Positions 8,953 to 37,262 of a stretch of DNA of 39,009 nucleotides are shown here, piece by piece. Numbering within the stretch: position 1 is the stretch's first letter; each line of letters opens with the position of its first letter. A program made the position numbers and the translations under genes. The notes beneath the pieces were generated by a model. It was not told the origin of the DNA, did no database searches, and saw only the letters and a program-made list of their open reading frames with translations. The stretch covers positions 1 to 39,009 of the forward strand of contig JAHDDB010000002.1 in assembly GCA_020629575.1 (NCBI GenBank). Direction: 5' to 3'. The stretch is from Caedibacter sp. Lineage in GTDB: Bacteria; Pseudomonadota; Gammaproteobacteria; Francisellales; Francisellaceae.

Positions 8953-9012
8953 TCGCTAACTCACGCGCTTTTTTCTTTATTCTTCTGACTAAGACTAAAT
9001 ATCCACCCACAA

Positions 9013-9065
9013 ACGCTCAGCTAACGCTTACACAATCAAGATGGGCCGCACTATGGTCATAGCCA
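9013..9065. repeat. family A composite repeat, 5'-truncated copy
   Basis: ACGCTCAGCTAACGCTTACACAATCAAG...TATGGTCATAGCCA matches the tails at 20676-20727 and 37209-37262. Confidence 0.8.
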
Positions 9066-9072
9066 TTCTTCT

Positions 9073-9504: not shown

Positions 9505-9605
9505 TTGTGTATAAGAACTCATTAAATTCGTCAATGCTCGACATTCTAACCTGATCATTTCGATAAATGAAGGAGTCACTCACGTAAAATTTGTAGTTGT
9601 TTATC

Positions 9606-9772
9606 TATACCGCTCGTAAATCATTTTGCAGTGTTCAGTGCCGAAGAAGTTTTTGATGCTTTTGGGTGATTATATTGCAGGCAACAGCTAGGACTATTGT
9701 CAAAATAGAATCGCTCAAAAGGGCGTAAAATTCAATGGTAGAAATGCTGTGAAATGGTTTGTGGGCGGTATA
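9606..9772 (+). mobile_element. ERIC-like MITE / long hairpin element (family B), copy 1
   Basis: TATACC...GGTATA ends. The terminal 30 nt pair completely (22 Watson-Crick + 8 G-U), and there is an inner stem. Homologous to 12437-12670. Confidence 0.8.
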
Positions 9773-9807
9773 TATTACCAAACAAAAACAGTTGCTTTAA
9801 GCATTTT

Positions 9808-9859
9808 CCCCTCACCCGTGCAGCTTATGCGGCATGACTTCTCCCACAAGGGGAGAGGT
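9808..9859 (+). repeat. family C palindromic repeat (CCCCTCACCC...CTCCCACAAGGGGAGAGG)
   Basis: Near-identical to the reverse complement of 17785-17837. Confidence 0.9.
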
Positions 9860-9872
9860 TATTTCACGTTGA

Positions 9873-9934
9873 CTGAGCGTCAGTCGAAATCATAATGCAT
9901 TCGATCTTAACTACAACCCTTCGACTATACTCAG
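9873..9934. repeat. family A inverted doublet
   Basis: CTGAGCGTCAGTCGAA (9873-9888) ... TTCGACTATACTCAG (9920-9934). Confidence 0.85.
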
Positions 9935-10043
9935 GAAACGGTTAATACTTTGCACTTTTGAGAAATCAAAGTATCATACTTGCTTTTTTGCATCGTGAAT
10001 CATTACCATAAGTGCCATCTTTAGATAAATTGATAAGGCATTT

Positions 10044-11534
10044 ATGCTGAACTACAAAGACTTACGCGAATTCTTAGATCACTTAGAGGAAATGGGTGAG
10101 CTAAAACGCATCAAACAAGAAGTATCGCCCTTTCTGGAGATGACTGAGATCTCATCACGTGTACTTCACCAAAAGGGACCCGCGCTTTTATTTGAAAACC
10201 CCAAAAATCATGACATACCGGTGTTAACCAACTTATTTGGCACTGAAAAACGCATTGCATTGGCACTTGGTGCGGACGATGTTAGTCAACTGCGTGAAAT
10301 TGGTAAGCTTTTGGCTTATTTAAAAGAACCTGAGCCACCAAAAGGTCTTAAAGATGCTTGGGATAAAATGCCGATATTAAAGCAAGTTTTAAAGATGTCA
10401 CCGAAGGTTATTAAGAATGCGCCGTGTCGAGAGGTGACAATCAATAAAGAAGAGATTGATTTTTATCAAATGCCCATACAAACCTGCTGGCCTGGGGATA
10501 TTGCCCCACTTGTAACATGGGGTTTAACCATCACTAATAGCATTCGCAAAGAGCGTTTAAACCTAGGTATTTATCGCCAACAAGTCATTGGCAAGAATCG
10601 CCTTATTATGCGCTGGCTTCATCACCGCGGTGGTGCGCTTGATTACCAAGCTTGGTGCAAAGCCAATCCTGAGAAGCCTTTTCCGGTATGCGTGGCACTG
10701 GGTGCAGATCCTGCGACTACTTTAGGTGCGGTGACACCTATTCCTGATACGCTCTCTGAATATGCTTTTGCCGGATTATTGCGTGGTAGCAAAACCGAGC
10801 TCACCCCTTCGATACTCCATGGTGACGATATGATGGTGCCAGCGCATGCTGAGATCATTTTAGAGGGCTTTATATATCCTAATGATGTCGCTGAAGAAGG
10901 TCCCTTTGGAGATCATACCGGTTATTATAATGAGGTTGAAAAATTTCCTGTATTCACTGTTGAGAAAATCACTCATCGCAAAAACCCGATTTATCACAGC
11001 ACATACACCGGACGCCCACCAGATGAACCGGCTATTTTAGGTGTTGCCTTTAATGAGATATTCGTGCCGATCATTCAAAAGCAATTTCCTGAAATTGTTG
11101 ATTTTTATTTGCCACCTGAAGGTTGCTCCTATCGCTTGGCAGTCGTTAGTATCAAAAAGCAATACCCAGGACACGCCAAGCGCGTGATGATGGGGGTTTG
11201 GTCATTCTTACGTCAATTCATGTATACCAAATTTGTGATTATTGTTGATGATGATATCAATACGCGCTCGTGGGAAGATGTAATCTGGGCAATTACCACA
11301 CGTATGGATCCCACAAGAGACACCACCTTGATCGATAATACACCGATTGATTATTTGGATTTTGCCTCACCTGTTGCTAGTCTAGGCTCGAAAATGGGAT
11401 TAGATGCCACCAATAAACTCCTTGGTGAAACAACACGCGAATGGGGTGAGGTGATCACCATGCGCCAAGATATTATTGATAAGGTTGATGCGATCTGGGC
11501 GAATTTAGGGATTGATAATGACTCAAAAGCCTAA
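10044..11534 (+). CDS. ubiD: 4-hydroxy-3-polyprenylbenzoate decarboxylase
   Basis: Motifs [36 protein letters not shown] and [10 protein letters not shown]. Confidence 0.97.
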
Positions 11535-12396: not shown

Positions 12397-12436
12397 CTGT
12401 AAATAATCGGATGTATAAAGTATCGCACCTGTCATA

Positions 12437-12670
12437 TATACCCATCATAAATCATTTCGCAATGTTTAATGCTGCAGAAGTGTTTAATGATCTTGAGCGA
12501 TTGGATTGTAGATAATAGCTAGCCTTGACAGAGTCTTTGGGCGCTCATTTGCTAAAACAATGAAACTATTCATTATTTCTTAACGCATTCGCTATTGGCA
12601 AAATCCAATCGCTCAAAATCGCAAAAAATTCAATGGTAGAAATACTGTAAAATGGTTTTCGGTGGGTATA
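12437..12670 (+). mobile_element. ERIC-like MITE / long hairpin element (family B), copy 2 with a ~67-bp central insert
   Basis: TATACCC...GGGTATA ends, a perfect inner stem TTGAGCGATTGGATT/AATCCAATCGCTCAA, and AAAATTCAATGGTAGAAAT shared with copy 1. Confidence 0.8.
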
Positions 12671-12712
12671 TACTCCCAACCAATTTAAAATATCACTTTA
12701 TTACTCAAGCAC

Positions 12713-13292: not shown

Positions 13293-14309
13293 ATGCATCA
13301 AAACCTTAAATATTTTTACAGTGCTTTTTTCATTACGATCATTGGTATCATTGCTGCCATCATGCTTGAGCCAACCCACAAACTCTATGCGCTTTATTTG
13401 ATTTTGGTATTATCTCTTTTGGAGATTTCATTGAGTTTTGATAATGCCGTCGTTAATGCCAAAGTATTGGCAAAAATGCCTAAAAAATGGCAAAAGATAT
13501 TTATCTGGATTGGTTTGCCAATTGCTGTATTTGGTATGCGCCTAATATTTCCTATCCTCTTGGTTAGTGTGACAACAAGCTTATCTTTCCTTGATGTCTT
13601 TAAGCTTGCCACTAATGATCCTGCGGCTTACCAACATGCCTTAGAGCTTGGCTTCCCTACGATTTGCGCATTTGGTGGCGGCTTTCTGATCATGGTATTT
13701 TTAAAGTTTTTCGTTGCTGAGAAACATGATCTTCACTGGATCCCTGCAATTGAAGAAAATAGATTCATTAGCCTAATTCGTCACTATCCAGGTGGCTATA
13801 TTATCTTCGCATTAATTATTGGCTTTATCGTTATCTATAATGCAGATACCAATCAAGGAGGCACACTAGCGCTTGCTTTTTTAATGGGCTTAATGGTGCA
13901 TGAAGCATTAGGTATTTTAAATCATGCCTTTGGTAGCAACATGACGGGCAAGGTTATGCAAAACGGTTTTATGGGCTTTTTATATCTTGAAGTATTAGAT
14001 GCGTCTTTTAGTTTTGATGGTGTGATTGGCGCCTTTGCCATTTCAACGAATATTTTCATTATCATGATTGGTTTGGGTATTGGTGCAATGTATGTGCGCT
14101 CACTCACCATTTTCTTTGTTGAGCATCAAACCTTAACAAAATTTCGCTACCTTGAGCATGGTGCACATTACGCCATTGGATTTTTAGCGGTTGTGATGTA
14201 TATCAAGATCTACACTCATGTACCAGAATGGTTAACAGGAACTGTTGGTATTGGTTTAATTATCGTGGCATTTGTTCATTCAAATATTGCAAACAAACGT
14301 TCAACATAA
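13293..14309 (+). CDS. DUF475 / TerC-like integral membrane protein
   Basis: Motifs LEISLSFDNAVVNA, AVFGMRL, LYLEVLDASFSFDGVIGAFA and YLEHGAHYAI. Confidence 0.9.
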   Translation: MHQNLKYFYSAFFITIIGIIAAIMLEPTHKLYALYLILVLSLLEISLSFDNAVVNAKVLAKMPKKWQKIFIWIGLPIAVFGMRLIFPILLVSVTTSLSFLDVFKLATNDPAAYQHALELGFPTICAFGGGFLIMVFLKFFVAEKHDLHWIPAIEENRFISLIRHYPGGYIIFALIIGFIVIYNADTNQGGTLALAFLMGLMVHEALGILNHAFGSNMTGKVMQNGFMGFLYLEVLDASFSFDGVIGAFAISTNIFIIMIGLGIGAMYVRSLTIFFVEHQTLTKFRYLEHGAHYAIGFLAVVMYIKIYTHVPEWLTGTVGIGLIIVAFVHSNIANKRST

Positions 14310-14320
14310 CTCTTACTTGC

Positions 14321-14337
14321 CTTCGACTTACGCTCAG
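14321..14337 (-). repeat. family A motif downstream of the GIY-YIG gene
   Basis: CTTCGACTTACGCTCAG is the exact reverse complement of 14865-14881. Confidence 0.92.
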
Positions 14338-14375
14338 GCAGCGTGGTCATATGATGTGAAAGGTGGAGCCCCCTA

Positions 14376-14690
14376 TCAATGATCTTCTGGTAAATTTTTG
14401 CTCTTATTAGAATTTCGACAAATCGATAATATATGTAACTGATTATAATCACCTTGAATCAAGGCTTGTTTTTTCTTTCGACTCCAGCCTTGAATTTGCT
14501 TTTCTCGGGCATAAGCCTCATCAATTCGATCAAATTGTTCAACAAATACTAACTTTACTGGCAAACGCTTACGTGTATGATTTGCTCCTTGGCCATTTTG
14601 ATGCTCCCACAGTCTAAGCTCGACATTCTTAGTGCTCCCTGTGTAATAACTTCCATCACTACATTCAAGTATATAAACAAATGCTTGCAT
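14376..14690 (-). CDS. small stand-alone GIY-YIG endonuclease (UPF0213/YhbQ-like), 104 aa
   Basis: MQAFVYILECSDGSYYTGST..ELRLWEH..GANHTRKRLPV..AYAREKQIQGWSRKKK retains the catalytic Y, Y, R, H and E. A GAGGA RBS lies 7 nt upstream of ATG 14690. The longer ORF to 14807 just reads through the repeat. Confidence 0.92.
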   Translation of the reverse strand: MQAFVYILECSDGSYYTGSTKNVELRLWEHQNGQGANHTRKRLPVKLVFVEQFDRIDEAYAREKQIQGWSRKKKQALIQGDYNQLHILSICRNSNKSKNLPEDH

Positions 14691-14924
14691 AAGCTTAATC
14701 CTCGTTAGCTGAGCGCCAGTCGAAACCAAGCATACTGCTTCATTAACAGTGCTGCATAAAACCCCACCAAGACTTAACCCCGCTGGCTGAGCGTAAGTCA
14801 AAGTCAAATACGCTACTTCACTAACAGCGCAGCATAAAACTCGACTAAGAGCTCACCCCGTTGGCTGAGCGTAAGTCGAAGCCAAGTATACTACTTTGTT
14901 AGCAGCACTGCCCAAAGACGACAT
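14691..14924. repeat. tandem array of three 78-bp units, each carrying the family A motif
   Basis: CTGAGCG motifs start at 14709, 14787 and 14865 (period exactly 78). The units align over their whole length. Confidence 0.92.
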
Positions 14925-16353
14925 CAAGCTCGCGTACGGCTTTAACATCATCAACACGTTTTACTGGTTGCGTTAATGGCGCTGCTTTCATTTTCTCAGG
15001 ATTTGTTCGTGCTAGCTCACGAATTTCAATCATCGCATTAACAAACTGATCCATTTGCTCGCGCGTTTCTGTTTCAGTTGGCTCAATCAACAAACACTCA
15101 GGCACTAACAATGGGAAATACATCGTTGGCGCATGCATATCATGATCCAAAAGCTGCTTAGCAAAATCATTGGCATTAACACCATAGGCTTTTTTCTCAG
15201 GTGCTAATGAGACAATAAACTCATGTGACGCACGACGATCAGGTAATGCAATAGTAAAGCCTGCCAACTTCAAACGTGCCATCATATAGTTGGCATTTAA
15301 CGTAGCAATTTCTGAAGCTTTGGTTAAACCATTTCCACCCAATGTTTTAAGGTAAACATAAGCACGGATTAATACGCCAACATTCCCCATAAAGGCATGC
15401 ATCGCACCAATGGTTTGCGGAATGGCCTCTTTACCTTTGATGCGATAGATATCACCCTCTTTAACAATGGTTGGCACTGGTAAATAAGGTAATAAGCGTT
15501 TATTCACGGCAATAGGACCACCTCCTGGTCCACCACCACCATGCGGTGTTGCAAAGGTTTTATGAACATTCATATGCATTACATCAAAGCCCATTTTGCC
15601 TGGTTTGGCTTTACCCATAATCGCATTTAGATTCGCGCCATCATAATACAAAAGCCCGCCTGCCTCATGCACAAGCTTAGCCACCTGCTCGATATCACGT
15701 TCAAATACGCCCATCGTTGATGGGTTGGTTAGCATAATCCCTGCCGTATTAGGTCCTAGGACTTTCTTTAAAGCCTCAATATCAATATCACCTGTTTTTA
15801 GTGATGTTGGAATTTCGATAACTTTGCATCCTGCCATCACCGCTGTTGCAGGGTTTGTGCCATGCGCGGCATCTGGCACAATGATTTCATTGCGATGCGC
15901 TTCATTATTAGCAATATGATACGCTCTGATCATCTGTACACCGGCAAACTCACCTTGAGCACCGGCACAAGGCACAAGTGACACAGCATCCATACCAGTG
16001 ACTTCACTTAAGATTTCTTGCAACTCATAGAGCATCTCCAACAAACCCTGCTGTGTCAACTCATCTTGATAAGGATGAATATTTAATACCGATGGATTAA
16101 AGGCACACTTCAAGGCAATACGTGGGTTGTATTTCATCGTGCATGAACCCAATGGATAAAACTGCGTATCAATTGAGAAATTCTTTTGCGATAACTTGGT
16201 GAAATGACGTAAGACTTCAAGCTCACCTAATTCTGGTAATAAGGGCTTATCATCGCGCAAATGCTTTTGATCAAAATGGATAGTATCTGACACTGCCCAT
16301 TTTTGTGAATTTGCTCTACGGTTTTCTGCTGATTTTTCAAAACTAACTGTCAT
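14899..16353 (-). CDS. gcvPB: glycine dehydrogenase subunit 2
   Basis: Motifs [47 protein letters not shown] (PLP lysine) and IEPTETE. Confidence 0.97.
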
Positions 16354-17739: not shown

Positions 17740-17784
17740 ATAGGCTCCTTATATCATGATAAAAAATAAGTTGTACTACTTATC

Positions 17785-17837
17785 ACCTCGCCCCTTGTGG
17801 GAGAGGTCGTGCAGCATTAAGCTGCACGGGTGAGGGG
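17785..17837 (-). repeat. family C palindromic repeat, copy 2
   Basis: Its reverse complement CCCCTCACCCGTGCAGCTTAATGCTGCACGACCTCTCCCACAAGGGGCGAGGT matches 9808-9859. Confidence 0.9.
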
Positions 17838-17891
17838 TAATCAAAGTTCAACTTATTTTTTCATTGTTACTATGTATTATCTTACTTACAA

Positions 17892-17914
17892 GGGCGTATT
17901 CAATACGCCCCTAC
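17892..17914 (-). repeat. GTAG-type REP palindrome
   Basis: The minus strand reads GTAG-GGGCGTATTGAATACGCCC. A second copy is at 25094-25116. Confidence 0.85.
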
Positions 17915-17955
17915 TTACACTTAAAAAGTTATCATCGTATTTTATCATTACAAAC

Positions 17956-19729: not shown

Positions 19730-20572
19730 ATGATTCACTGGTTTCCAGGGCATATGCACAAGGCAACTAAAGAGCTGATGAAGCTTATGCCACAAATTGA
19801 TATTGCAATTGAAGTTGTTGACGCGCGCGCGCCTGAGGCAAGTGCTAATCCGGTATTGCATGAAGCAGCCAAAAGCAAACCGATTATTAAGATTCTCTCT
19901 AAATCTGATCTTGCTGATCCCAAAGTCACCAAACAATGGCTTCAATTTTATAATGGTAAGGCAATTGCCTTGGATATTGCACGCGATAAAAAAAGCGCAC
20001 AGAAAATCATTCAATTATGTAAAAAACAGCTACCCAATCGCGGTACGCTTTTAAAGCCAATACGCGCAGTTATTTTTGGTATTCCTAATGTTGGTAAATC
20101 AACACTTATTAACAGTCTTGCCAAGCGCAAAATCGCACAAACGGGCAATGAGCCTGCCGTTACTAAAAGGCAGCAAAAAATTGAAATTGAGAAACATTTT
20201 TATCTGAATGACACACCAGGAATTATGTTTCCAAGCCCTAAGGATGAAGGGTGTGGCTTTAAGCTTGCTGCCATTGGTTCGATTCGTGATACCGCCATGG
20301 ATTACCCAACAACCGCTTATTTTATGCTGCAACTATTAAAAGAAGATTACTCTGGGGTATTAAGTTCTCGTTATAAAATTACTGAAGACTCAGAAGATTT
20401 AGAAAAAATGCTTATGGCAGTTGGTAAGACACTAGGGCAGCAGCATATGCATCATATTGCCGAGAAACTTATCCAAGATTTTCGCCAAGGCAGAATAGGT
20501 AAAATAAGCTTAGAAACACCTGAGAATTATTTGAAATTTCAGGTGGCTGAAGAAACTAAAGACAATAGCTAA
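19730..20572 (+). CDS. ylqF: ribosome biogenesis GTPase YlqF/RbgA
   Basis: Motifs IHWFPGHM, VVDARAP, GIPNVGKSTLIN and DTPG; circularly permuted GTPase. Confidence 0.95.
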   Translation: MIHWFPGHMHKATKELMKLMPQIDIAIEVVDARAPEASANPVLHEAAKSKPIIKILSKSDLADPKVTKQWLQFYNGKAIALDIARDKKSAQKIIQLCKKQLPNRGTLLKPIRAVIFGIPNVGKSTLINSLAKRKIAQTGNEPAVTKRQQKIEIEKHFYLNDTPGIMFPSPKDEGCGFKLAAIGSIRDTAMDYPTTAYFMLQLLKEDYSGVLSSRYKITEDSEDLEKMLMAVGKTLGQQHMHHIAEKLIQDFRQGRIGKISLETPENYLKFQVAEETKDNS

Positions 20573-20626
20573 CGTCGTTCATATTATGCGAACGGTATTC
20601 CCAACTTGATAAGTTGAAGCGATGCA

Positions 20627-20727
20627 CTGAGCATCAGTCGAAGTGGGTAATCACACTTCATAGAGGCTTCGACTTACGCTCAGCCAACGCTTACACAATC
20701 AAAGTGGTCAGGAATATGGCATAGCCA
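20627..20727. repeat. family A composite element (inverted doublet + ~45-bp tail)
   Basis: CTGAGCATCAGTCGAAG (20627-20643) and CTTCGACTTACGCTCAG (20667-20683). 20649-20686 is identical to 37182-37219. Confidence 0.92.
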
Positions 20728-20728
20728 A

Positions 20729-21688
20729 TTATTTAATAACAGACGCTTCACCTGAAGCAAACACGCGTTCACTATCTCCAATTTTTAGTTTCAACTGACC
20801 TAATGCATTGACACCATTAGCAATGCCAGTAATCACCTCTTTATTTAAAATATTTAAACCAATCGTTTTACCTTTTAAATAATCATACTTAGCATAATCC
20901 TCAATAAAAGCACTAAAGTCATTGTTTTCAAATCGCTCTAGCGTTGAGATTAATTCATTGCTAATCCCGATAGCTAAGTCATTGCGATCAATATAATGGT
21001 TTAATTCACTTGTCAATGACGTCCAGCCTTGTGTGATATCATCGCGTTTCTGCATATTAACATTAATACCAATACCAATCACAATCTGGCTTTGCGCATT
21101 TGATTCCGCTTTAACTTCAATCAAAATACCTGAAAGTTTTTTGGCATTGATATAAATATCATTTGGCCATTTGATTTTAATATCTAATATTGGATATTTA
21201 TTCACTAAAGCTTTTGCAACACTCACTGCCACTGCCAAACTCAAGCCTGATAGCTCACTTAATTCTTTGTGTAAGCTTACCTTTAATGAGTAATATAGAT
21301 TCTCAGCAAAGGGTGAGCACCACACACGATCAAAGCGCCCTTTGCCTTGGCGTTGCTCTTCTGCGATACAAATATGATAATCACTTTTGACTGTTGAGTT
21401 TTGTAGATAGGTATTGGTTGAATCAACAGTTGTTAAACATTCAATCTCTACATCTTTAGCCTCAACAGCTGCTAAAATCTTTGCTTGATCAAGCATAATA
21501 AGCGGTGACTGTAACTTATAACCACGAACACGATCTGACTCGACCGCTATATGATAATCATTTTGCAGTTTTTGAATCGCTTTCCATACTGCAGCCCGTG
21601 TAATTCCAAGCGTATTACCGATGGTTGTGCCATCAGTATAAACTTCATGACTTAATTGCTTTAAAATCTCTAACGTTGTTGTATTCAA
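20729..21688 (-). CDS. birA: bifunctional biotin--[ACC] ligase / repressor
   Basis: N-terminal HTH (LGITRAAVWKAI); motifs DSTN, AEEQRQGKGRFDRVW, KWPNDI and KLSGILIE; TTG start with a GGAG RBS. Confidence 0.95.
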   Translation of the reverse strand: MNTTTLEILKQLSHEVYTDGTTIGNTLGITRAAVWKAIQKLQNDYHIAVESDRVRGYKLQSPLIMLDQAKILAAVEAKDVEIECLTTVDSTNTYLQNSTVKSDYHICIAEEQRQGKGRFDRVWCSPFAENLYYSLKVSLHKELSELSGLSLAVAVSVAKALVNKYPILDIKIKWPNDIYINAKKLSGILIEVKAESNAQSQIVIGIGINVNMQKRDDITQGWTSLTSELNHYIDRNDLAIGISNELISTLERFENNDFSAFIEDYAKYDYLKGKTIGLNILNKEVITGIANGVNALGQLKLKIGDSERVFASGEASVIK

Positions 21689-24922: not shown

Positions 24923-25038
24923 AACACCCCCGCCTTCGTAAACTCGGCACCCCTCTTGCAAAGAGGGGAATCTAAATAAGCCTTAGCCTAATTCCCCTCT
25001 TTGCAAGAGGGGTGGCAGCCACAGGCTGACGGGGTGTT
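24923..25038. repeat. family D inverted doublet of palindromic units
   Basis: AACACCCC...CACCCCTCTTGCAAAGAGGGGAAT, a spacer, then ATTCCCCTCTTTGCAAGAGGGGTG...GGGGTGTT. Confidence 0.88.
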
Positions 25039-25093: not shown

Positions 25094-25116
25094 GGGCGTA
25101 TGCGATACGCCCCTAC
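25094..25116 (-). repeat. GTAG-type REP palindrome, copy 2
   Basis: The minus strand reads GTAG-GGGCGTATCGCATACGCCC. A degenerate partial copy is adjacent at about 25075-25093. Confidence 0.85.
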
Positions 25117-25137
25117 TAGTATTTAATATATGCCCGA

Positions 25138-37097: not shown

Positions 37098-37161
37098 GCG
37101 CCTTCAAACTAATGATGATTACGCATTGACTAAATATTTACCCAAAAGGGCTCACCGTACC

Positions 37162-37262
37162 CTGAGCATAAGTCGAAGGGCAATCACACTTCATAGAGGC
37201 TTCGACTTACGCTCAGCCAGCGTTTACATAATCGAAGTGGGCGGGCACATGGTTTATAGCCA
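37162..37262. repeat. family A composite element (inverted doublet + tail)
   Basis: CTGAGCATAAGTCGAAG (37162-37178), CTTCGACTTACGCTCAG (37200-37216), and a tail ending TATAGCCA. Confidence 0.92.

What the first reader, a model, noticed from the sequence alone, without database searches (positions are those of the whole stretch)
14321..14924. Stand-alone GIY-YIG nuclease embedded in its own repeat family: candidate nuclease/REP-like mobile system
Seen: a 104-aa GIY-YIG gene with intact catalytic residues sits between housekeeping genes (DUF475 and gcvPB). It is bracketed by inverted copies of a 17-mer: CTTCGACTTACGCTCAG at 14321 and CTGAGCG(T/C)(A/C)AGTC(G/A)AA at 14709, 14787 and 14865. The same motif occurs six more times as gene-less inverted doublets (9873/9920, 20627/20667, 37162/37200), plus a fragment at 9013. 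Established: this layout, a nuclease gene flanked by its repeats with dispersed doublets elsewhere, is that of RAYT/REP/REPIN systems, but those use an HUH transposase. Inference: a GIY-YIG nickase recognises the motif and spreads or maintains the repeats. The motif can fold into a small hairpin with tandem G.A pairs (CT-GA-G...C-GA-AG). I recall similar repeats near small GIY-YIG genes in other bacteria but know of no established mechanism.
Basis: partly seen in the sequence, partly recalled or inferred. Interest (0 to 1): 0.85.

Follow-up and report, generated by a model that had tools for sequence, protein, structure and literature searches.

The report
Ssn-like nuclease with own DNA hairpin
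A tiny DNA-cutting enzyme gene sits between copies of a DNA hairpin that accompanies its gene family across many bacterial phyla; it likely cuts single-stranded DNA at that hairpin as the Ssn nucleases described in 2025 do, but it forms a separate branch with a different hairpin, and most scattered hairpin copies here lie inside a small element likely moved by an unrelated transposase.

Summary
Observation confirmed. The 104-aa GIY-YIG gene (14376-14690, minus) lies between outward-facing copies of a 17-mer with 122 exact copies genome-wide. The motif is a hairpin: covarying outer stem, invariant tandem G·A core, GNA/GNNA tip. A relaxed hairpin pattern flanks 82 of 85 homologues from 11 phyla, against 1 of 27 housekeeping-type UPF0213-like and 2 of 39 Ssn-like genes. 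The closest system is not RAYT/REPIN but Ssn/NTS (Chenal 2025). Membership fails: separate tree branch, and the published SRM pattern hits 0 of 85 loci. Two additions. About two thirds of this genome's copies lie in or near a 139-201-bp MITE with 8-bp target duplications, which points to a DDE transposase, not the nuclease. The ORF is nearly identical between species whose neighbouring genes are far diverged (4 of 87 synonymous codon differences against 34% background), suggesting recent lateral replacement at this site. Four congeners lack the gene but keep 39-125 copies. No activity was tested. This scan noted similar cassettes before on other DNA. Verdict: new variant of a known kind.

The parts
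14376..14690 (-). GIY-YIG nuclease gene, 104 aa, single domain (Y6, Y16, G18, R26, H30, E63)
   Evidence: model pLDDT 87, nearest folds UPF0213 1zg2/1ywl then Slx1
14314..14347 (-). Downstream hairpin copy (core 14321-14337); one arm of the 34-nt inverted repeat around the gene
   Evidence: I3, I4
14691..14924 (+). Three 78-bp tandem units upstream of the start codon, each with one hairpin core (14709-14725, 14787-14803, 14865-14881); the last unit includes the final 26 nt of gcvPB
   Evidence: D3; unit tails homologous, 0 of 1000 shuffles; 1 unit in G008, 2 in G005, 3 here
13293..14309 (+). DUF475/TerC-family gene, host flank
14899..16353 (-). gcvPB, host flank
9873..9934 (.). Free inward-facing doublet: 4-nt-loop copy (9873-9889 +) and 3-nt-loop copy (9919-9934 -); no MITE ends; also at the orthologous site in G001 and G003
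8987..9064 (+). Internally deleted MITE (the '9013 fragment') with a perfect 8-bp target duplication (8979-8986 and 9065-9072)
   Evidence: empty site with one near-identical copy of the 8-mer in G003
20610..20726 (+). MITE remnant: hairpin doublet 20627/20667 plus the MITE right end; left end missing
   Evidence: site empty in G002, G003, G005, G008
37122..37261 (+). Degenerate full-length MITE carrying the 37162/37200 doublet; flanks agree at 6 of 8 bases

Best explanation
This is a single-domain GIY-YIG gene flanked by its clade's own hairpin repeat; the enzyme likely recognises that hairpin in single-stranded DNA and cuts beside it, as Ssn nucleases do, while most scattered copies in this genome lie in a miniature element likely moved by an unrelated DDE transposase. 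Shown: gene and hairpin co-occur across phyla; the outer stem covaries while the inner C-TGAG...CGAA-G core is fixed; the tip matches DNA mini-hairpin loops; the clade is separate from SRM-flanked Ssn-like proteins; the MITE has 8-bp target duplications and empty sites; the ORF is anomalously alike between species. Inferred: the protein reads the stem base and tandem G·A core (the tip varies from 4 to 30 nt in the sister clade, so it is probably not read); it nicks ssDNA a few bases from the conserved 5' G/CG tag; repair of such nicks yields the local tandem arrays and lets the ORF be replaced or copied between hairpin-bounded alleles by recombination. The free doublets are likely older products of this system, inherited vertically.
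For: Strict motif within 400 nt: 70 of 85 clade loci, both sides in 49; 249 hits in 69 kb near against 32 in 230 kb far; reversed control 1; 0 of 37 distant GIY-YIG loci. Structure-aware pattern: 82 of 85 clade, 8 of 9 sister clade, 1 of 27 UPF0213-like, 2 of 39 Ssn-like; reversed control 3 of 85. Covariation on 60 loci: two outer pairs show 29 and 28 both-side changes; 83% of cells paired against 32-48% for slid controls; 0 of 500 shuffles on cells paired, both-side cells and covariation score. 208 of 249 clade cores have a 3-nt loop, mostly GNA; GCGNAGC/GCGNNAGC are DNA mini-hairpins, far less stable as RNA (PMC13037366, section 2.3). SsnA binds and cuts ssDNA at its flanking hairpin and needs Y6, Y17, E64 (PMC11893778). 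In a 51-row tree the three hairpin-associated groups lie on one side of a 96/88 branch from the motif-less UPF0213-like group. Synonymous codon differences G000/G005: 4 of 87 against 1836 of 5459 in 16 neighbouring genes (binomial 5e-11); G008/G005 2 of 87. A close strain shows at least 6 differences in the 312-nt ORF out of 29 in 1601 nt, so the ORF is not slow-mutating. dN is far below dS. MITE: 11 of 34 perfect and 21 of 34 at least 7/8 for 8-bp duplications, none perfect at lengths 3-7 or 9-12, mismatched control 0.45%; empty sites in 4 of 5 relatives at one copy.
Against: No binding or cleavage was tested; ssDNA specificity rests on analogy to a different branch. By sequence the protein is closer to UPF0213 structures (E 2.5e-16) than to SRM-flanked proteins (about 41 bits). 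The tree has 95 columns and a long Ssn branch; in the 114-row tree the Ssn-like group attached inside the clade without support, and A+sister against A+Ssn-like could not be told apart (p-AU 0.48). Two of five covariation measures were not above shuffles. Standard DNA folding gave the outer-stem hairpin for only the 14865 copy of the four gene-flanking copies, with z about -2, and does not model G·A pairs. Lateral replacement rests on 3 genomes and 87 codons, with no co-conversion tract. No transposase with matching ends was found for the MITE. 9 genomes with at least 15 motif copies had no clade or sister hit with this query.
Confidence: 0.62

Rival explanations
1. RAYT/REPIN-like system: the nuclease itself copies and spreads the gene-less doublets, which are its non-autonomous elements.
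For: About 56 of 164 copies lie outside the MITE, many as inward heterodimers and some in tandem arrays. In a class sample of 351 genomes, 7 of 13 with a clade or sister gene had at least 15 copies against 9 of 338 without (threshold chosen after seeing the counts; kin not independent). The hairpin had to enter the MITE somehow, and G007 holds the same MITE ends with another hairpin inside.
Against: Most copies carry a DDE-type signature. The four free doublets checked in relatives are old and shared at orthologous sites; the one clean absence (G001, G004) looks like a deletion between short repeats because the more distant G005 has the doublet. G001 has 125 exact copies and no clade gene. GIY-YIG enzymes hydrolyse and have no known strand-joining step (established knowledge).
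Confidence: 0.15
2. Host-domesticated ssDNA restriction: the enzyme trims incoming transforming DNA at hairpins, as SsnA does in Neisseria, and plays no part in its own spread; the similar ORFs reflect ordinary interspecies recombination.
For: SsnA lowers transformation by NTS-bearing DNA (PMC11893778). One copy per genome at a fixed site in G000, G005, G008, under purifying selection.
Against: Absent from the site in G001-G004, with remnants in G001 and G003 that look like loss. The low divergence stops at the ORF edges rather than running into the flanks. Homologues are scattered over 11 phyla. Competence of this organism was not examined.
Confidence: 0.12
3. The hairpin works as RNA (3'-end stabiliser, terminator or RNA partner) and the enzyme acts on or with RNA.
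For: Copies are intergenic (2 of 84 clusters inside ORFs) and enriched between convergent genes: 25 of 66 classified clusters against 99 of 736 gaps. One RNA-run contig covers the ORF, which does not show transcription.
Against: The GNA triloop is the dominant tip and such hairpins are much less stable as RNA. Copies occur on both strands around the genes. No Rfam match in the window. SsnA ignores RNA. Convergent gaps are also where insertions do least harm (inference).
Confidence: 0.07
4. An ordinary UPF0213/Slx1-like structure-specific repair nuclease that happens to sit among repeats.
For: Best sequence and fold matches are UPF0213 and Slx1 structures.
Against: Motif beside 82 of 85 clade genes against 1 of 27 UPF0213-like genes; separate supported branches; patchy presence within one genus.
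Confidence: 0.04

Closest known systems
Ssn nucleases with NTS/SRM hairpins (SsnA of Neisseria meningitidis, cd10448; Chenal et al. 2025, PMC11893778)
   Same: About 100-aa single-domain GIY-YIG gene flanked by a directional hairpin with a conserved 5' tag; hundreds of intergenic copies; repeat-gene-repeat layout; equivalent catalytic Tyr, Tyr, Glu positions.
   Different: Separate branch from SRM-flanked proteins; SRM pattern at 0 of 85 clade loci and 1-2 places in this genome; hairpin has a conserved tandem G·A core and a short covarying stem instead of a long perfect palindrome; activity untested.
UPF0213 / prokaryotic Slx1-like proteins (1zg2 BH0048, 1ywl EF2693; PMC1564403)
   Same: Nearest solved sequences and folds; minimal stand-alone GIY-YIG domain.
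   Different: UPF0213-like genes sampled here lack the hairpin (1 of 27) and form their own side of the tree.
RAYT / REP / REPIN / BIME and CGTC-tagged REPs (PMC3733652)
   Same: Inverted doublets, heterodimers and tandem arrays in intergenic DNA; a single enzyme gene bracketed by the repeats.
   Different: No HUH/Y1 transposase found; no GTAG tag; the motif is not in that paper's main text (its figures and supplements were not seen).
IS1595-family MITEs
   Same: 139-201-bp elements with imperfect terminal inverted repeats starting GG and 8-bp target duplications, the usual length for IS1595 (PMC8101967).
   Different: No transposase with matching ends found; the IS1595 copies in G004 and G008 have other ends. 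The cargo is a nuclease-associated hairpin doublet, and another hairpin in G007.
Free-standing GIY-YIG homing endonuclease genes (recalled, not looked up)
   Same: Patchy presence at one intergenic site and a younger ORF than its flanks.
   Different: No C-terminal DNA-binding domain; no co-conversion of flanks; the likely target is a multi-copy ssDNA hairpin, not a unique duplex site.

Membership tests
Ssn family | Small single-domain GIY-YIG protein (under 150 aa) | tested here: met
   104 aa, PF01541 only; one-domain model
Ssn family | Catalytic Tyr/Tyr/Glu (Y6, Y17, E64 in SsnA) | tested here: met
   Y6, Y16, E63 invariant in 63 homologues; equivalence inferred from position, SsnA itself was not aligned
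Ssn family | Belongs to the cd10448 / SsnA clade | tested here: not met
   SRM-flanked proteins and their close kin (a proxy for cd10448; CDD was not run) form one side of a 100/100 branch without this clade. Ulvibacterium marinum and Aquimarina spongiae, which hold clade genes, are NO for SsnA tblastn and strict cd10448, YES only for the loose psiblast test, in the paper's Supplementary Data 4 (same species, assembly identity not verified)
Ssn family | Flanked by SRM-pattern repeats | tested here: not met
   0 of 85 clade loci; 1-2 hits genome-wide, none at the cassette; the same pattern hit 18 of 162 loci, the Ssn-like ones
Ssn family | Flanked by its own multi-copy, directional hairpin repeat | tested here: met
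Ssn family | Site-specific cleavage of ssDNA only | not testable with these tools
   needs purified protein
RAYT/REPIN | HUH (Y1) transposase flanked by the repeats | tested here: not met
   flanked gene is GIY-YIG; PF01797 not found in the 96%-complete genome
RAYT/REPIN | Dispersed inverted doublets in intergenic DNA | tested here: met
   45 of 84 clusters hold inward-facing copies with the 4-nt pattern alone
IS1595-type MITE (dispersed copies) | Terminal inverted repeats and 8-bp target duplication | tested here: met
   34 paired-end elements; 21 of 34 at least 7/8; empty sites
IS1595-type MITE (dispersed copies) | Cognate IS1595 transposase with the same ends | tested here: inconclusive
   PF12762 in 4 of 9 genus genomes, not G000; no shared ends; metagenome scan gave no partner in 80 of 95 loci examined
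UPF0213 / prokaryotic Slx1-like | Sequence and fold similarity to 1zg2/1ywl | tested here: met
UPF0213 / prokaryotic Slx1-like | Groups with the repeat-free housekeeping-type members | tested here: not met
   separate supported branches; CDD assignment cd10456 could not be run
Homing endonuclease gene | Nuclease-driven conversion of empty alleles with flank co-conversion | tested here: inconclusive
   ORF younger than flanks, no co-conversion tract

The most novel reading that the evidence does not exclude
A second, phylum-spanning lineage of site-specific ssDNA nucleases that reads a tandem-G·A mini-hairpin, and whose gene spreads by a homing-like route: nicks at the hairpins bounding it drive replacement of the ORF between species at the same site, while the hairpin doublets hitchhike on IS1595-type MITEs. 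Hairpin-paired small GIY-YIG enzymes would then be one radiation much wider than cd10448.
Probability: 0.25. Interest if true: 0.8.

Novelty: new variant of a known kind. Interest (0 to 1): 0.52.

Why it matters
If the enzyme cuts ssDNA at this hairpin, it extends site-specific ssDNA nucleases beyond the published Ssn clade to a branch with at least several hundred genome loci and a compact, well-defined target whose stem and tip appear free to vary. The Ssn paper only hypothesised mobility; the congeners here give filled, empty and half-deleted alleles and a lateral-transfer signal to test it. The MITE result is a caution: high repeat copy number beside such a nuclease need not be the nuclease's doing.

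Tried and rejected
SRM pattern as the motif's family: rejected. My first clade scan fixed the loop at 4 nt and found only 8 of 86 loci; allowing 2-5 nt gave 70 of 85, so the 4-nt loop is the local variant. RAYT: no PF01797. Second copy of the gene in this genome: none. Rfam: no match. NCBIfam: no family for the protein. Viral contigs: no relative among 40 candidate stretches. Autonomous partner of the MITE: not found in genus IS1595 loci or 10 fetched stretches, plasmids or metagenome matches, which were chance hits. Target duplication for the nuclease cassette itself: none clear. Host tree from DUF475+gcvPB did not resolve the genus, so gain against loss is argued from distances and remnants only. 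Co-variation of motif and protein tree: loop length is clustered (4 changes against 8.8 shuffled, but kin share labels); the bulged base is not (12 against 12.7). Promoter scan: not above chance. Sequencing runs were contigs only, so expression could not be judged. Literature: six spelled-out motif variants hit 0 papers; searches listed no paper on this branch; 12 of 14 Ssn supplementary files lack the motif, files 13 and 14 were not searched. One pattern had the wrong spacer and returned 0. No protein-DNA complex could be modelled.

Full report
Observation. The ORF at 14379-14690 (minus) encodes 104 aa with a GIY-YIG domain (PF01541, E 3.4e-19) between DUF475 and gcvPB. The genome holds 122 exact copies of CTGAGCRYHAGTCRAAG with 0 for the reversed control, and 158 at up to one mismatch against 0 in five shuffles. 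It has one copy of the gene. The nearest named homologues are from Cysteiniphilum (98%). The three upstream copies form a 78-bp tandem array whose last unit overlaps the end of gcvPB; relatives have one or two units. The copies around the gene face outward; those in doublets face inward.

Gene and motif travel together. With the loop fixed at 4 nt only 8 of 86 clade loci matched. With 2-5 nt, 70 of 85 matched within 400 nt (one duplicate locus dropped), 49 on both sides; there were 249 hits in 69 kb near the genes against 32 in 230 kb farther off, 1 for the reversed control, and none at 37 distant GIY-YIG loci. A pattern requiring three outer pairs around TGAG...CGAA matched 82 of 85 clade, 8 of 9 sister-clade, 1 of 27 UPF0213-like and 2 of 39 Ssn-like loci (two ungrouped rows left out). 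The clade loci span 11 phylum labels. In 351 genomes of the class, 7 of 13 with a clade or sister gene (E up to 1e-19, this genome included) had at least 15 copies, against 9 of 338 without. The threshold was chosen afterwards, G256 was not scored for the protein, and unpublished G077 is one of the 338.

The motif is a structured hairpin. On one copy from each of 60 loci (one of 61 was left out, cut by a contig end), the two pairs just outside the core show 29 and 28 both-side changes while C-G, T-A, G-C and C-G inside are fixed or nearly so. 83% of cells pair, against 32-48% in slid controls; three of five measures beat all 500 shuffles and two did not. The tip is GNA in most phyla (208 of 249 cores have 3 nt) and mostly GTAA here. 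GCGNAGC and GCGNNAGC are very stable DNA mini-hairpins and much weaker as RNA (PMC13037366, abstract and section 2.3); here a T or C is bulged next to the loop, so stability is inferred. A G five bases 5' of the core is kept in 223 of 248 copies. In the sister clade the tip varies from 4 to 30 nt. Standard folding, which ignores G·A pairs, gives only weak support.

Closest known system. Chenal et al. 2025 (PMC11893778; I read abstract, introduction, results, discussion and two of three parts of methods, and searched 12 of 14 supplements) show that SsnA, a 94-aa GIY-YIG protein flanked by NTS hairpins, binds and cuts only ssDNA beside the hairpin, lowers transformation, and they propose that repeat-gene-repeat is a domesticated mobile unit. 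That is how this cassette most likely works. It is not a member by their tests: the SRM pattern hits 0 of 85 clade loci, and SRM-flanked proteins with their kin form one side of a 100/100 branch without this clade in trees of 114 and 51 rows drawn from 162. In the 51-row tree this clade (98/98), the sister clade (96/97) and the motif-less UPF0213-like group (96/88) are each supported, so the three hairpin-associated groups lie together, but their order is unresolved (p-AU 0.48). Two species with clade genes score NO on the paper's strict cd10448 test. By sequence and fold the nearest solved structures are UPF0213 and Slx1, classed as prokaryotic Slx1-like in PMC1564403 (passages).

Most dispersed copies ride a MITE. 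Printing the doublets with flanks showed fixed ends about 40 nt outside the cores. 34 elements had both ends; most are 139-201 bp and four are internally deleted. Their flanks repeat over exactly 8 bp: 11 of 34 perfect, 21 of 34 at least 7/8, none perfect at 3-7 or 9-12 bp, control 0.45%. Of 164 four-nt-loop cores, 76 lie inside these elements and 108 in or near MITE sequence; about 56 are free. Orthologous empty sites keep one copy of the 8-mer (window 8987 in G003; a second element in 4 of 5 relatives). Eight-bp duplications are usual for the IS1595 family (PMC8101967, passages), but no transposase with these ends was found. G007, which has no copy of the motif, has an element with the same type of ends, a perfect 8-bp duplication and a different hairpin inside, so the chassis is independent of this nuclease. 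The four free doublets checked are shared at orthologous sites with relatives.

History of the cassette. Of 9 genus genomes, the gene is at this junction in G000, G005 and G008; G001 keeps two abutting hairpins, G003 one, G002 and G004 none; in G006 the flanking genes are not adjacent, and G007 gave no match. G001-G004 have no clade gene elsewhere by protein or family search yet carry 125, 87, 65 and 39 exact copies. The motif was in 7 of 9 genus genomes and 0 of 32 other family and order genomes. G005 is more distant than G001, G003 and G004, and the remnants look like deletions, so loss is likely; the host tree did not resolve this. The ORF differs at 1-3% between G000 and G005 while the hairpin regions and adjacent genes differ at 12-19%; synonymous codon differences are 4 of 87 against 28-41% in each of 16 neighbouring genes. 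A close strain varies in the ORF at the same rate as in the flanks, which argues against unusual constraint. The simplest reading is recent replacement of the ORF between species at an old hairpin-bounded site; whether the nuclease drives it is untested. dN is well below dS. G005's protein stops at residue 91, after the last predicted helix.

Mechanism. Shown: co-occurrence, covarying stem, separate branch, MITE carriage, patchy presence, young ORF. Inferred: the enzyme binds the stem base and G·A core in ssDNA, nicks near the 5' tag, and repair gives tandem arrays and allele replacement. Confidence 0.62.

Novelty. No paper in the searched library prints the motif or treats this branch; PMC3733652 lacks it in its main text (passages; figures and supplements not seen) and a 2026 preprint mentions Ssn repeats only as a benchmark (passages; its supplements are closed). 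Earlier notes of this scan describe similar cassettes in other genomes and none in this one; I had named Ssn before that look-up. The kind of system is published; the branch, the hairpin, the MITE carriage and the lateral-replacement signal are not, as far as these searches reach. New variant of a known kind, interest 0.52.

Noticed in passing
L364 (G000:C103:2926-3252) and L365 (G000:C178:15976-16299); repeat copies in window 9805-9862 and 17782-17840: Two DUF559 genes are each flanked on both sides by a different G+C-rich hairpin family, which is also dispersed gene-less in the window: a second nuclease/hairpin pair in the same genome.
   Followed up: partly
window 24948-25014: Perfect 24-nt inverted doublet of a CCCCTCTT...AAGAGGGG hairpin; 74 strand matches genome-wide (palindromic, so about half as many sites); absent at the orthologous site in G002, G003, G005, G008. 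No partner gene sought.
   Followed up: partly
L203:175-335 (G007): MITE with the same type of ends and a perfect 8-bp duplication but carrying the CCCCTCTT-type hairpin instead; the chassis takes different hairpin cargo.
   Followed up: partly
G002, site orthologous to window 9579-10044 (L200): A MITE left end is joined at the hairpin core to the right half of a free doublet, as if recombination occurred at the hairpin.
   Followed up: no
window 9603-9785 and 12434-12683: A further repeat of about 180 bp (families D5, D6), present or absent among relatives at several intergenic sites.
   Followed up: no
window 17892-17924 and 25094-25126: Short GGGCGTAT...ATACGCCCC hairpin family, repeated at gene ends and variable among relatives.
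   Followed up: no
L197-L199 (G313): Three copies of an element of about 700 bp, apparently non-coding, with the GNA-loop core in inverted pairs 320-350 bp apart, in a genome with no clade gene by this query.
   Followed up: partly
L012 (G002:C13:54734-54976): An Ssn-like GIY-YIG gene flanked by yet another tandem repeat family that the SRM pattern misses.
   Followed up: no
G263 (L132): 13 matches to the protein, several of them C-terminal fragments near contig ends; sister-clade gene possibly multi-copy.
   Followed up: no
P0007, P0009, P0012, P0075, P0101, P0116: Many homologues read through the downstream hairpin, giving C-terminal tails with GFDSAQP- or RSLSGVE-like words that are the translated motif; lengths of 130-180 aa in databases reflect this.
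   Followed up: partly
G001, site orthologous to window 20572-20729 (L196): A 642-bp insert with another small gene occupies the junction that holds the MITE remnant here and is empty in four other relatives.
   Followed up: no
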